Shown: one piece after another, positions 21,001 through 24,000 of the stretch
Numbering within the stretch: position 1 is the stretch's first letter
How the letters are laid out: each line of letters begins with the position of its first letter
Made by a program: the position numbers
Assembly: GCA_965202805.1 (NCBI GenBank)
Contig: OZ241869.1
Span: 480,001-544,000, forward strand
Source of the DNA: Longimicrobiales bacterium
Lineage (GTDB): Bacteria > Gemmatimonadota > Gemmatimonadetes > Longimicrobiales > Gaopeijiaceae
Length of the DNA: 64,000 nucleotides
Reading direction: 5' to 3'

Positions 21001-24000
21001 GCATCAGCCGGCGCTCAGGTGTCGTCGACACCGAAGCGCTGCATGTGATGAAACGATTGTGACTCCCTAGCCTTCCACCAACTCTCTCCACGTCAGCCGT
21101 CTCCCGATGAGCGGGGTCACGATTTAGCCATCCTGCCCCTCGGACGAGAACCGCTGGGCGAGTTCCAGGAGCGAGAGTTTCTTCCTTGGGGTGCGCTTTG
21201 TCGCGATCATCGGGTACTGCCCCTCCTGCCTGCGGTTACTGCTAACTGAAAGAGACCGGGCTGGCTCTGACACCAGCCTGGCCTAGAGCGGCTGCACACC
21301 CTTTAGGCGGCATGAGGCGTTGACCGTTGGCCCCCGGATACGGACCCGAGGGCGTCCAGAAGACCTCTGCGATTCCGATTTGCGGCCCCACCGCTCCTTG
21401 AGGCCGTCCGCGACGCGGAATCTCACCCTCGCGCTGGTCGAGTCCGTCCACCCGCCGCTGTTACATCCGCCGCGCTTCTGCGGCGCAACCTCCTAGCGCT
21501 TCTGGCGGTCCTCTGCGTGTTCACCGTAGGTTTGCTGGTTCCCCAAAACGGAGAGACGCTTCATGTCATCAGGCAAGCAGCAATACTGGCTTCGCTACAC
21601 CGAAAGGGCAGCGTTCTACATGCCGGTCATCACGGAAGAGTCCGTCAGACGGAGACCAGAAATCGGAGATCGCATTGAGTCCCCCGGCTATCCGCCACCG
21701 GAGGGCTTCAGCTTCACCGTGGTTAAGGTGGGGGACGACTACGCTCTCGTGGACCTCACACCTCGTCAGCATGAACCGGGGTAGAATCTGGCTCGTGATG
21801 GCGGATCTTTTCGATCACCTTGAGCGAGGTTCCATCGCGGGTGGCAAGTCGCCGAATCACTCGGGATGCAGAGCGCGGGTCCAGCCTTCGCTGTCGAGCT
21901 CATCCAGCGCAATCGGAGTGGGGGAAGGCTTTGGTGGCAGCACCAATTACAGCGCACCAGGATTCGTCCGGCCACGAGGTGTCGTGGCACCACCCCCTAT
22001 CGCGGGAGCAGAAGGGCAGTTATCTTTAAGATTCCCGCCAGAAATGGGAGAGCCCTCGGTGTTGCAGCACCACGGGCTCGGAAGGGGGGCCGTGTATCGG
22101 TGAACACACCGGATTTTAAATCCGGCAGCTGCTAGGCCTTGCGGGTTCGAATCCCGTTCCCCCTGTTGTGGAAACAGGTGTTTACCCTGTCTCCGTGAGG
22201 CACTCTATACGAGGATCAGGCATCATGGCAAGTGGTGTATGCGCGCGTGGACCGAGATTCGGTTGACGTTCGCCGTCACTCTGCCGCAACCCAGCATCAA
22301 GGGAGCACTAGCAAGTGTCAACCACCAGCTATTACATCAACCTCAACGCCCAGGCAAATGGCGATCACGAGGTTCACGCGGAGGGATGCTACTGGCTAAC
22401 CCTGGTTCAGAAGAGACGGTATCTCGGCAGCTTCTTCTCATGCTTTCCAGCAGTCGCCACGGCAAGAGCACTCGGGTACCGGACGGCGAACGGGTGCTAT
22501 CACTGCTCACGAGCCTGTCACGACAAATAGCTCATCCTTTCCCCGGTACCAAGTTGCAACAACTCAAGGAGGACGATCTCATGGCAGAAACCGCGAAGTG
22601 GCTCGACCTAACCTTCGAGGTACATCACCCCGACCGCGTGAGTTGGAACGCAGTGCCGGGTGTATACGTATTCGCCGGCGAAAACCTATCTGGCAATTGG
22701 TTTGCGTTGTATGTTGGCCAGACGGCATCACTGGCTGACCGTCTAGCCACTCACGAAAGGTGGCAGGAGGCGGTGCGGTGGGGCGCGACACATATTCACG
22801 TGCGGGTTGTCCACGCCGAAGGATCGCGGCTTGCTTTGGAAGGTCAATTGATTCAGGCATATCAACCTCGGTTGAATGGCTAAAGATTGTAAACTGCACC
22901 GGGAAACGACAAGAAAGGGGAGGACGCACACCATGGCCATCTCAGAAGGAACCCGCGACGTGCTGCTCTTGGCGGCCAATAACAGGTGTCAGTGTTTGGG
23001 CATGTATGGCTGTGAACCACCACACACAAGATGCAACCGCATAGGAAGCCTGCTTGTCCCACTTGAGATCGACCACATAAGACCCTTATTTGCTGGCGGC
23101 ACAGACGATATCGGGAATCTCCAAGTGCTGTGTTATCAGTGCCACAAAAACAAGACCGCGCGGGATCGGGTCATATATGCTCACCTGCTCCCCTGAATGT
23201 ACAAGTACGGGTAATCACCTGACACCCACCCTCATCTAGATTAGGTCCTACGCTGCTTTCTTCACCCCTTCCCGGCCGGGGGTTGGCGGGGGATCCCGGC
23301 CTTGGAGACCGCGTAGGGCGCGCGTCCCTTCATGCCGCAGCCCTAGTGCGGGCGGCGCTGTTTGTAGGTCTCAAGATACACGTCCAGGTCCTTCTGCATC
23401 TCCTTGACGGTCTCGTATCAGATCGTCCGCCCCGTGATCGTCAGTGCTTTTCGAGGGGGGTACGGTGGAAGCGTTCGTATGTGGACGTCCCCTAGTGGGG
23501 AAGCTCGACTTCAAACCGAATCGGTAACAACCTGGTCAGGTACTGCCGTATGTCCGGGCCTCTTGATGCAGCTCTCGTTGGCTGCGGGCTCGTTATGGTG
23601 TTCCTGAGGATCGGATCCCAAAATCGATAAGCGGGCTCGACGACCCTTGAACACTTGCTGGTTTACCGATCCTATCTTCTAGACCGTTTTGCCCTACCCG
23701 TTTTGCGTCCTACCCACATCTCTCGACCGCTATCCGCTTTCGCTTCTCTCCTCTCCTAGAGGCTGGTCAAGCGGCAGCACGAACCTGGTAGACCTCCTCT
23801 CTCGTGGTCACCGCCCAGACAATCCCGCCGGCCTGTTGGCGACCGCCACCACGACCAGCATCGTCGGCTTGCGTGCCAGCATCCCGGTCAACCACGGGTC
23901 CGTAGTCTCGCCGCGCCGGATCGCGTGTTGGATGACCGCCATGGCTCCGGTGATCAAGAGCTGTCTGAGATCGCGCTGGCCCATCTTCGATATCCTGCCC

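What a model noticed while it worked through the whole genome (the two positions that open the first line are those of the whole stretch)
22083..22165. Ochre-suppressor class II tRNA gene inside a defence/mobile island
An orphan, well-formed class II (long variable arm) tRNA gene with anticodon UUA, which would read the stop codon UAA, lies in a low-GC island of IS fragments and restriction/defence genes, followed by a GIY-YIG-like and an HNH endonuclease gene. Boldest reading: a functional serine-type (G73, long arm) ochre suppressor carried by a mobile element, tolerated because only 6% of host genes end in TAA, and used in conflict with AT-richer invaders or left by a recoded phage. New if true: a natural chromosomal ochre suppressor in a GC-rich bacterium, a possible translation-level conflict weapon, and a ready suppressor scaffold.
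Evidence so far: ARAGORN tRNA-Stop(tta), 82 nt (rna.tsv; call 12); Rfam tRNA 48.5 bits, E 2e-9, full model 1-71: 7-bp acceptor stem, GG in the D loop, GGUUCGAAUCC T loop, 7-nt anticodon loop UUUUAAA. Not a recent copy of any host tRNA: best local match 18 nt of T arm; anticodon arm closest to tRNA-Ser(UGA) of relatives. Stop use: TGA 2015, TAG 994, TAA 193 of 3203 genes. Neighbours: g00425 weak GIY-YIG (E 0.035, call 52), g00426 HNH (PHROG 3e-14, call 34); island holds m5C MTase-MORC-Mrr helicase and AAA_22-PRTase genes. A 79% similar tRNA-like gene with a 10-nt anticodon loop sits directly upstream of a CD-NTase gene (SMODS/DncV-like, E 1e-8) in relative G070.
(Added by a program. Inside this text positions count along the whole contig: contig position 480,001 is position 1 of the stretch shown here. 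"Call 12" and the like, gene names such as g00115 and contig names such as C1 are that model's own, and its searches are not shown. The text may have been shortened before it was handed on; [...] marks where a part breaks off. The agent that wrote the report below was given it as the finding of a first reader that could run no searches.)

Follow-up and report, generated by a model that had tools for sequence, protein, structure and literature searches.

The report
Orphan serine-type tRNA gene, stop-reading anticodon
A real, well-shaped tRNA gene that could read the stop codon UAA sits in a mobile defence island, but its only two relatives head an anti-phage operon and have scrambled anticodon loops, so the stop-reading anticodon looks like drift rather than a maintained suppressor.

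Summary
Window 22083-22165 (+) is a class II cloverleaf with anticodon UUA (ARAGORN; Rfam tRNA 48.5 bits, the lowest of 48 tRNAs in the genome).

The gene is not alone, and homology runs beyond the tRNA. In both relatives this unit sits at the 5' edge of the same type II CBASS operon. G000 has no CBASS. Here the unit precedes three small genes: a Cys-rich phage-family protein, a GIY-YIG-like protein and an HNH protein.

T arm, stems and box are conserved across the three copies. The anticodon loops are not: 7 nt UUUUAAA in G000, 8 nt ACUUCAAG in G070, about 13 nt in G264.

The nearest ordinary tRNAs are tRNA-Ser(UGA) of the family, one base (G35U) from UUA. Box plus hairpin plus tRNA is also a native tRNA-gene layout in this genome.

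I found no phage relative, no att repeat, no gene needing TAA read-through and no RNA data.

Best reading (0.55): a mobile, tRNA-Ser-derived gene unit, orphaned here, probably transcribed, with UUA incidental. A maintained ochre suppressor remains possible (about 0.2).

The parts
21972..21987 (+). Terminator-like hairpin (CCACGA-GGTG-TCGTGG) upstream of the unit. The G070 and G264 counterparts carry a T-run; here it is lost.
   Evidence: Read. The similarity to G070/G264 is weak and was judged by eye.
22019..22036 (+). Promoter-like box GTTATCTTTAAGATTCCC (holds TATCTT and TAAGATTC).
   Evidence: 16/18 and 15/18 identical to G070 and G264. TATCTT occurs upstream of 4/48 tRNA genes against 0.1% of random 90-mers, and TAnnTT upstream of 16/48 against 1.7%. 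That it acts as a promoter is inferred.
22050..22079 (+). GC-rich leader hairpin between the box and the tRNA. Weaker here than in the relatives (4-nt deletion, 2 mismatched pairs).
   Evidence: Folds; pair counts. The same layout occurs before native tRNA genes.
22083..22165 (+). Class II tRNA-shaped gene with 7/5 acceptor/T geometry, anticodon UUA (22116-22118) and G73.
22315..22530 (+). Small Cys-rich protein (71 aa) of a phage/prophage family of unknown function. Has an RBS; stop codon TAG.
   Evidence: phrog_4298 E 5.4e-19. 16 viral loci hold 52-61% identical relatives.
22581..22883 (+). 100-aa GIY-YIG-like protein. Has an RBS; stop codon TAA.
   Evidence: Pfam GIY-YIG E 0.0042, below cut-off. 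PADLOC PDC-S14 E 1.9e-5, partial match.
22934..23196 (+). Small HNH endonuclease (ORF open from 22876; the ATG at 22934 follows an RBS). Stop codon TGA.
   Evidence: Pfam HNH 2.3e-12; phrog_589 2.7e-14; sequence.
23198..23477 (+). Repeat that bounds the cassette on the right. An inverted 82% copy lies at 30760-31053.
   Evidence: multi-copy depth.

Best explanation
The gene is one of three known copies of a rare, mobile, fast-evolving gene unit derived from a serine-type (class II) tRNA gene. The unit consists of a terminator-like hairpin, a clade-typical tRNA promoter box, a GC leader hairpin and the tRNA body. In the two relatives the unit forms the 5' edge of a type II CBASS cassette (CD-NTase, E1/E2, JAB, HNH-SAVED). 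In this genome the CBASS part is absent, and the unit is followed by three small phage-type genes, two of them nuclease-like, of the kind that settle beside tRNA genes. The copy is probably still transcribed from its own promoter and trimmed like a tRNA (inferred). What the family conserves is the tRNA-like body: acceptor, D, variable and T arms. The anticodon loop is not conserved, so decoding is not the selected function. UUA is one substitution (G35U) from the UGA anticodon of the nearest ordinary tRNAs, tRNA-Ser(UGA), and is best read as drift. If the RNA is charged (SerRS does not read the anticodon; recalled knowledge), it could give low-level UAA and UAG read-through as a by-product. 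Shown here: the gene, its shape, the shared upstream elements, the CBASS linkage in the relatives, and the non-conserved loop. Inferred: transcription, processing, the origin from tRNA-Ser, and loss or replacement of CBASS in this genome.
For: Homology beyond the tRNA: the box, hairpin and tRNA align in all three copies. A covariance model built from them scores 141/186/175 bits on the three. The best other hit in 150 genomes of the family scores 67 bits, and all 7 top hits checked are tRNA-Ser(UGA).

G070 and G264 share two blocks at 80% nucleotide identity, the tRNA unit (174 nt) and the CBASS operon (4874 nt), with unrelated flanks.

Per-region identity between G070 and G264: T arm 17/17, hairpin 28/32, D arm 17/19, anticodon loop 3/13. 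G000 against each of them: T arm 16/17, anticodon loop 1/10 and 1/13. The loops are 7, 8 and about 13 nt.

Canonical tRNA-Sec of G000 and G264 is 98% identical, while the tRNA-like copies are 72% identical.

The distribution is sporadic: 2 of 19 genomes of the genus and 1 of 53 of G070's genus.

A contig of another metagenome run matches 21500-21822 with 4 differences, then diverges. This is contig-level evidence and weak.

The native-type layout of box plus hairpin plus tRNA also occurs at host tRNA-Leu(UAG) and at tRNA-Ser(UGA) of relatives.

I found no need for TAA read-through. Long extensions follow TAA stops no more often than other stops (28.9% against 28.2% and 30.9%), and nothing in the island joins up when TAA is read as sense.
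Against: Of the three copies, the G000 copy is the most canonical: a 7-bp acceptor stem, a 7-nt anticodon loop with U33 and A37, GG in the D loop, and the only one over an Rfam gathering score (48.5 against 44.7 and 27.6 on the Sec model). It has no indel in the tRNA body despite 28% divergence, and its acceptor pairs differ from tRNA-Ser by paired changes. Both points would fit selection for a working tRNA in this lineage.

The G070 loop also holds a stop-reading triplet (UCA).

With three sequences, covariation support is weak: 22-37 of 500 shuffles reach the observed values.

The overall G070-G264 divergence of the unit (about 0.21) is near the dS of the adjacent CD-NTase (0.25). Constraint on the body therefore rests on the uneven spread of changes, not on the rate.

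Loss of CBASS in G000 is inferred only; no remnant was found.
Confidence: 0.55

Rival explanations
1. It is a working ochre suppressor. The tRNA is expressed, serylated by SerRS through its long variable arm and G73, and inserts Ser at UAA (and, by U34 wobble, some UAG). It is kept by the mobile element for conflict or regulation.
For: Near-canonical cloverleaf with U33, A37, G18G19, T54-C56 and G53-C61. It has its own clade-type promoter box. It is the most tRNA-like of the three copies. TAA is the rarest stop (180 of 2426). Ser-type irregular tRNAs with a UAA-reading anticodon, active in E. coli, are in print (PMC5389517; passages read).
Against: The anticodon loop is not conserved in the only homologues. 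C8 replaces the near-universal U8. U11-A24 and G3-C70 differ from host tRNA-Ser, and the V stem has only 3 bp with an A-C mismatch; that these are identity elements is recalled. It has the lowest Rfam score in the genome. No gene needs read-through. Read-through would add a median of 41-54 codons, and 31% of genes end in TAG. The gene is found in 1 of 19 genomes of the genus in this form.
Confidence: 0.2
2. It is a cis-acting leader of defence cassettes. The tRNA promoter drives the downstream genes, and RNase P/Z cleavage at the tRNA-like body releases or stabilises the mRNA. Alternatively, the RNA acts on the CBASS proteins. G000 re-uses the module for other cargo.
For: The unit sits 61 and 120 nt before the CD-NTase start on the same strand, with no strong terminator seen, and it co-diverges with the operon (80% for both blocks). 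In G000 three genes with good RBS follow on the same strand, and no consensus terminator lies between them. The body is conserved while the loop is free.
Against: 0 of 7 loci with upstream sequence for more distant CD-NTase relatives (31-51% identity) have a tRNA or tRNA-like gene. The same layout is simply that of native stand-alone tRNA genes. Co-transcription is untested. Only two CBASS cases exist and they are kin.
Confidence: 0.15
3. It is a remnant of a phage tRNA array, or of a recoded phage, left in the chromosome.
For: HNH and GIY-YIG-like genes and a phage-family small protein follow it. One viral contig seen here has a tRNA(UUA) and an HNH ORF inside a 7-tRNA array.
Against: No other tRNA lies in the 64-kb window. 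There was no match in 50,697 phage records and no family member in the viral scans. 0 of 16 viral loci holding the small protein have a tRNA adjacent to it, and none matches the family model. The homologues sit in CBASS cassettes, not prophages. I saw no phage structural genes in the ORFs scanned.
Confidence: 0.05
4. It is a chromosomal tRNA(-like) gene used as an integration site, with the island inserted at its 3' end.
For: Homology with G070 ends about 12 nt after the discriminator, and the content downstream differs between genomes. The low-GC stretch starts at the gene.
Against: No direct repeat of the 3' half exists in the window or in the 20-kb loci of the relatives. No tyrosine or serine integrase was found nearby. 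The upstream flanks are not conserved either, and the gene itself is missing from 17 of 19 genomes of the genus.
Confidence: 0.05

Closest known systems
allo-tRNAs and related irregular Ser-type tRNAs (Mukai et al., NAR 2017, PMC5389517; passages read)
   Same: Both have a long variable arm and Ser-type features. Anticodons are unrelated to Ser, including one reading UAA. Genes lie near toxin-antitoxin systems or transposable elements. Many copies carry stem-weakening changes, and the authors judge them possibly not used for translation.
   Different: allo-tRNAs are defined by an 8/4 or 9/3 acceptor/T geometry. This gene is 7/5 and its relative G070 is 8/5. The phylum differs (Gemmatimonadota, order Longimicrobiales). 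Linkage to CBASS is not described there; 'CBASS' with 'tRNA-like' gave only two listed papers, on another subject.
Suppressor tRNAs of stop-codon-recoded phages (crAss-like, jumbo phages; search listing only; otherwise recalled)
   Same: Natural tRNA genes with stop-reading anticodons on mobile DNA.
   Different: Those sit in phage genomes, usually in tRNA arrays, alongside genes with in-frame stops. Here there is no phage, no array and no recoded gene.
Laboratory serine-inserting nonsense suppressors derived from tRNA-Ser by one anticodon change (e.g. supD; recalled, not checked here)
   Same: One substitution in a Ser anticodon gives a stop-reading tRNA that SerRS still charges, because SerRS ignores the anticodon. 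UGA to UUA is such a step.
   Different: Those are otherwise intact host tRNAs. This gene is only 56-65% identical to Ser tRNAs, with C8 and altered 3-70 and 11-24 pairs.
tRNA-Sec (RF01852) and selC paralogues
   Same: G070's copy has an 8-bp acceptor stem, a long D stem with a 4-nt loop, a 6-bp anticodon stem, a UCA triplet and G73, and scores 44.7 bits on the Sec model.
   Different: All three copies are below the gathering score of 47 (43.1, 44.7, 27.6). They are 49-57% identical to the canonical selC genes, which are present elsewhere in all three genomes.
Free-standing homing endonucleases beside tRNA genes in phage tRNA regions (T4 SegB, T5 F-Tfl; recalled)
   Same: Small GIY-YIG-like and HNH genes directly follow a tRNA-shaped gene.
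   Different: Homing is not shown here, and the GIY-YIG match is below the Pfam cut-off.

Membership tests
tRNA (Rfam RF00005) | Score over the gathering threshold with the full cloverleaf | tested here: met
   48.5 bits against 29, model 1-71; lowest of 48 in the genome.
tRNA (canonical bacterial) | Invariant nucleotides U8, A14, G18G19, A21, U33, T54-Psi55-C56, A58, G53-C61 | tested here: inconclusive
   All are present except U8 (C8); position 15 is U. The list of invariants is recalled.
Nonsense (ochre) suppressor tRNA | Anticodon UUA in a 7-nt loop with U33 and a purine at 37 | tested here: met
   Loop UUUUAAA at 22114-22120.
Nonsense (ochre) suppressor tRNA | Anticodon kept among homologues | tested here: not met
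   G070 has ACUUCAAG (8 nt); G264 has an irregular loop of about 13 nt.
Nonsense (ochre) suppressor tRNA | Expressed, processed, aminoacylated, and active at UAA | not testable with these tools
   No RNA run is listed for this stretch. There is no charging or reporter assay.
Nonsense (ochre) suppressor tRNA | Client genes with in-frame TAA | tested here: not met
   With TAA read as sense, no known gene of the island is joined or extended meaningfully. Genome-wide, extensions after TAA are no longer than after TGA or TAG. This is a crude ORF-based test.
tRNA-Ser identity (SerRS substrate) | Long variable arm, G73, G2-C71; C11-G24 and the 3-70 pair as in host tRNA-Ser (the identity set is recalled) | tested here: inconclusive
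   The long arm (3 bp plus an A-C mismatch), G73 and G2-C71 are present. U11-A24 and G3-C70 differ from host tRNA-Ser(UGA).
allo-tRNA | 12-bp acceptor branch split 8/4 or 9/3 | tested here: not met
   7/5 here. An 8/4 reading leaves C8-U and G49 unpaired (sequence). G070 is 8/5.
tRNA-Sec (RF01852) | Gathering score of 47; 8/5 fold; UCA anticodon | tested here: not met
   43.1 bits, 7/5 fold, UUA.
Phage tRNA array remnant | Other tRNAs or phage genes adjacent; relatives in phages | tested here: not met
tRNA-gene integration site (att) | Direct repeat of the tRNA 3' part at the far end; integrase next to it | tested here: not met
CBASS-linked tRNA-like unit (the family defined here) | Box, leader hairpin and class II tRNA-like body matching model R1 at over 100 bits | tested here: met
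   141.3 bits. The model was built from this sequence and its two relatives, so the score is partly circular. An independent BLAST hit gives 79% identity to G070.
CBASS-linked tRNA-like unit (the family defined here) | CD-NTase operon directly downstream | tested here: not met
   No CD-NTase, SAVED or JAB match near the locus or elsewhere in G000.

The most novel reading that the evidence does not exclude
The three genes are live members of a mobile family of serine-accepting tRNAs whose anticodon loops are deliberately diversified: an ochre-reading UUA here, and a UCA-bearing 8-nt loop in G070. They would ride at the head of defence cassettes and act in translation-level conflict, for example by stop read-through or frameshifting that poisons infected cells or invaders. 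Alternatively they would supply a seryl-tRNA-like substrate or signal to the cassette proteins.
Probability: 0.12. Interest if true: 0.8.

Novelty: new variant of a known kind. Interest (0 to 1): 0.4.

Why it matters
If the best reading is right, the finding is a caution. A well-formed tRNA with a stop-reading anticodon in a defence island need not be a suppressor. Comparison with two relatives shows that the anticodon is the one part the family does not keep.

It also adds a case from Gemmatimonadota to the little-studied class of irregular Ser-type tRNA genes on mobile DNA. And it shows a tRNA-derived gene unit travelling with a type II CBASS operon, which my one literature search did not find described (two listed papers, neither on this).

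If the minority reading is right, it would be a natural chromosomal ochre suppressor in a 68% GC bacterium and a compact Ser-type suppressor scaffold. That can be tested directly with a reporter and a charging assay.

Tried and rejected
- Expression data: no RNA holder is listed for 21500-23500. Laying two DNA-type runs gave only contig-level presence or absence.
- Link between the tRNA and the small Cys protein: 0 of 16 viral loci with that protein have a tRNA beside it. 2 of 16 have a tRNA-Arg 2.4-3.2 kb away. 0 of 19 loci match model R1.
- Wider family search by patterns:
  - Anticodon stem plus T arm pattern: 2 viral and 2 genome hits, none of the family except G070 itself.
  - V arm plus T arm pattern: 75 metagenome and 2 viral loci, best R1 score 51.8 bits, all ordinary or unrelated tRNAs.
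  - D-arm pattern: 1 viral chance hit inside a coding region.
- The box pattern with up to 2 mismatches hit 53 of 401 genomes, but the reversed control hit a similar number, so only the exact hits and the G264 hit count. The recurrent GTTATCATTAAGGTTGCC in 7 genomes is the upstream region of a conserved ATPase gene with no tRNA.
- Distant CD-NTase relatives carry no tRNA-like gene.
- The att-site idea was rejected.
- selC-derived origin: in G070 the copy lies 18.4 kb from the canonical selC on the same strand, but the sequences are only 50% alike. In G264 and G000 the selC gene is far away.
- tblastx between the loci gave only noise.
- My first dS figure for the CD-NTase was wrong because I used an off-frame coordinate. 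I redid it.
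Full report
**The observation.** ARAGORN finds one tRNA in the 64-kb window, tRNA-Stop(tta) at 22084-22165, plus a tmRNA at 49550. Rfam's tRNA model matches 22083-22165 (+) end to end at 48.5 bits, against a gathering score of 29. 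The sequence gives the following cloverleaf:
- Acceptor stem A1-U72, five G-C pairs and G7-U66, followed by C8 C9.
- D stem GUGU/ACAC, with a 9-nt loop holding GG.
- Anticodon stem CCGGA/UCCGG, with loop UUUUAAA.
- A 15-nt variable region with a 3-bp stem.
- T arm GCGGG-UUCGAAU-CCCGU and discriminator G73.

No CCA is encoded, but most host class II tRNAs lack it too. In the whole 4.02-Mb, 68.4% GC genome it is the lowest of 48 matches over the cut-off. The ten host class II tRNAs score 51.6-61.1. It is 46-65% identical to them. The gene is real and close to canonical. The clear departures are C8 and U15.

**Surroundings.** Upstream lie IS30- and rve-type fragments. On the same strand, each with a good ribosome-binding site, three small genes follow:
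- A 71-aa Cys-rich protein of phage family phrog_4298 (E 5e-19), at 22315-22530, stop TAG.
- A 100-aa GIY-YIG-like protein (Pfam E 0.0042, below cut-off), at 22581-22883, stop TAA.
- A small HNH endonuclease (2e-12), up to 23196, stop TGA.

The 214-aa ORF at 22239-22883 is probably not one gene. Its second half is the GIY-YIG-like gene, and the Cys-rich gene overlaps its first half in another frame.

A repeat at 23198-23477 has an inverted 82% copy at 30760-31053. The two copies bracket an m5C methylase, a HATPase_c_3 (MORC-like) protein, an Mrr-helicase and Vsr. A 1830-aa AAA+PRTase-CE protein follows on the other strand. GC is 52-62% from 22 to 34 kb, against 68% for the genome.

**Relatives.** BLAST of the cassette over 401 genomes of the order gave only partial hits. 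The best on the tRNA part was G070, at 79% over 76 nt. Aligning the two loci showed that similarity continues upstream. It covers an 18-nt box (GTTATCTYTAAGRTTCCC) 47 nt before the tRNA, then a GC-rich hairpin, and more weakly a terminator-like hairpin further up.

A search for the box in the same 401 genomes gave exact hits only in G000 and G070. A 2-mismatch hit in G264, a genome of the same genus, lies about 110 nt from a 92% T-arm BLAST hit. That locus holds the third copy. ARAGORN misses it, and Rfam gives it only 27.6 bits on the Sec model.

A covariance model built from the three (box to 10 nt past the tRNA) scores 141, 186 and 175 bits on them. In 150 further genomes of the family the best hit is 67 bits, and all seven top hits checked are tRNA-Ser(UGA). 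Within the genus, 2 of 19 genomes have a copy. In G070's genus, 1 of 53 does. Pattern scans of viral, genome and metagenome collections found no further member. The phage collection gave no match.

**What the relatives show.** In G070 and G264 the unit sits 61 and 120 nt before a CD-NTase gene. That gene is followed by an E1/E2 (ThiF) protein, a JAB protein and an HNH-SAVED effector, which together make a type II CBASS operon.

The two loci share exactly two nucleotide blocks, each 80% identical: the tRNA unit (174 nt) and the operon (4874 nt). Their flanks are unrelated. The unit is therefore the 5' edge of a cassette of about 5 kb that occurs in different places in two genera.

G000 has the unit only. 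No CBASS protein has a match near the locus or elsewhere, apart from a housekeeping ThiF-like gene. More distant CD-NTase relatives (31-51% identity) have no tRNA-like gene upstream, in 0 of 7 loci with upstream sequence. The linkage is therefore local to this lineage and not a general CBASS feature.

**The anticodon loop is the part that is not kept.** Between G070 and G264 the region-by-region identities are:

| Region | Identical positions |
|---|---|
| T arm | 17/17 |
| Leader hairpin | 28/32 |
| D arm | 17/19 |
| V region | 14/16 |
| Box | 15/18 |
| Anticodon loop | 3/13 |

G000 against the other two shows the same pattern: T arm 16/17, anticodon loop 1/10 and 1/13. G070 has a 6-bp stem with the 8-nt loop ACUUCAAG, an 8-bp acceptor stem and a long D stem with a 4-nt loop. 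That is a Sec-like shape, but it scores 44.7 bits, under the gathering score of 47, and the genome has a canonical tRNA-Sec elsewhere. G264 has an irregular arm with a loop of about 13 nt.

91.6% of pair cells are standard pairs, but with three sequences the controls are weak: 22-37 of 500 shuffles do as well. The overall G070-G264 distance of the unit (about 0.21) is close to the dS of the adjacent CD-NTase (0.25). The other genes have dS of 0.38-1.23. Constraint on the body is therefore suggested by the uneven spread of changes, not proven by rate. Canonical tRNA-Sec genes of G000 and G264 are 98% identical, while the tRNA-like copies are 72% identical.

**Origin and promoter.** The nearest ordinary tRNAs are tRNA-Ser(UGA). 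Their loop is CUUGAAA. UUUUAAA differs at positions 32 and 35, and UGA to UUA is a single G35U step.

Native tRNA-Ser(UGA) genes of relatives, and tRNA-Leu(UAG) of this genome, have the same layout of a TATCTT-type box, a GC hairpin and the tRNA. TAnnTT boxes lie upstream of 16 of 48 tRNA genes, against 1.7% of random 90-mers. TATCTT itself lies upstream of 4 of 48, against 0.1%.

The unit is thus built like a stand-alone tRNA gene of this clade. That makes transcription likely (inferred). It also argues against import from a distant phage. The resemblance of the box to the TAnnTTTG element of Bacteroidota promoters is recalled, not tested.

**Is there work for a suppressor?** Reading TAA as sense joins or extends no recognisable gene between 20.5 and 37 kb. 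The one TAA-ending neighbour meets another TAA two codons on. Genome-wide, on 2426 long ORFs, stops are TGA 1502, TAG 744 and TAA 180. Extensions of 100 codons or more follow 28.9% of TAA stops, 28.2% of TGA stops and 30.9% of TAG stops. TAA-interrupted genes therefore do not stand out.

Median extensions of 41-54 codons mean that efficient read-through would be costly. It would be costlier still if U34 also read UAG (recalled). No RNA run holds the stretch.

**Mobility in this genome.** A contig from another metagenome run matches 21500-21822 with 4 differences and then runs on unlike the window. This hints that a close relative lacks the cassette from about 21823 onward. It is contig-level evidence and I treat it as weak. 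No direct repeat of the tRNA 3' part and no integrase were found.

**Reading.** The most economical account is a tRNA-Ser-derived gene unit that became part of mobile defence DNA. It is kept, or at least slow to decay, as a tRNA-shaped RNA, and it is free in its anticodon loop. In G000 the copy is orphaned from CBASS and is followed by small nuclease-type genes of the kind that settle beside tRNA genes (recalled from T4 and T5; one viral example).

Against this, the G000 copy is the most canonical of the three. It keeps a perfect 7-nt loop, and it has no indel in the tRNA body despite 28% divergence. A working tRNA in this lineage therefore cannot be dismissed. I put a maintained suppressor at about 0.2.

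**Known parallels.** The closest published parallel is the allo-tRNA group. These are Ser-type tRNAs with many anticodons, including one for UAA. They lie near toxin-antitoxin systems and transposable elements. Some are active in E. coli, and many are degenerate and possibly not translational (PMC5389517; passages read). This gene fails the defining 8/4 or 9/3 geometry, so it is a parallel and not a member.

Noticed in passing
Outside the window: G000:C1:3533314-3533387 (+), L168 7315-7388: A second orphan tRNA-shaped gene. Rfam tRNA gives 56.1 bits, but the anticodon loop has 6 nt (ARAGORN '?(Arg|Ala)(cg)'). It has the same layout of box at -67, GC hairpin and tRNA, and the same T arm. It lies directly after an IS1595 transposase ORF in a 55-62% GC patch.
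   Followed up: partly
Window 23198-23477 (+) and 30760-31053 (-): Inverted 82% copies of a repeat of about 290 nt (also at genome 630815 and 1706268). They bracket the m5C methylase / MORC-like / Mrr-helicase / Vsr block, in a composite-transposon-like arrangement. An rve_3 fragment overlaps the right copy.
   Followed up: partly
L037 2477-2565 (Burkholderiales MAG, DATENC010000011.1): A class II, Leu-like (A73, encoded CCA) tRNA-shaped gene with anticodon UCC (a Gly codon), followed by a clean terminator.
   Followed up: no
L124 about 2430-2545 and L109 (- strand) about 2495-2576: Two GC-rich metagenome contigs carry class II tRNA-shaped genes with anticodons GAU (Ile) and GAA (Phe). They share flanking motifs with each other and form another small family of irregular long-arm tRNAs. 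L109 has a second R1 hit at 3011-3093.
   Followed up: no
L034 1042-4350 (viral contig IMGVR_UViG_3300046804_006442): A 7-tRNA array that holds a class I tRNA(UUA), a class II tRNA with anticodon UUU (Lys codon) and an HNH ORF between the tRNAs. This is a natural phage example of a stop-reading tRNA beside a homing-type nuclease.
   Followed up: no
G000 genome, upstream of tRNA genes: TAnnTT boxes (TATCTT, TAAGTTC, TATATTG, TACCTT) lie 12-70 nt upstream of 16 of 48 tRNA genes, against 1.7% of random 90-mers. This is probably the -10/-7 promoter element of this Longimicrobiales lineage.
   Followed up: partly
Window 22239-22883: The 214-aa ORF is likely an artefact of GC-rich sequence. Two real small genes (22315-22530 in another frame, and 22581-22883) each have their own RBS.
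   Followed up: yes
L042-L045 and L048-L050 (7 genomes of G070's genus): The identical 18-mer GTTATCATTAAGGTTGCC lies about 30 nt before the start of a conserved ATPase gene (it reads like MoxR; not scanned here). It looks like the same promoter type on a housekeeping gene.
   Followed up: no
G070:C1:2461890-2480438: The tRNA-like gene and the canonical tRNA-Sec gene lie 18.4 kb apart on the same strand, with a relaxase gene and ORFs without Pfam hits between them. This may be an island bounded by two tRNA-type genes, but their 3' parts are not repeats of each other.
   Followed up: partly
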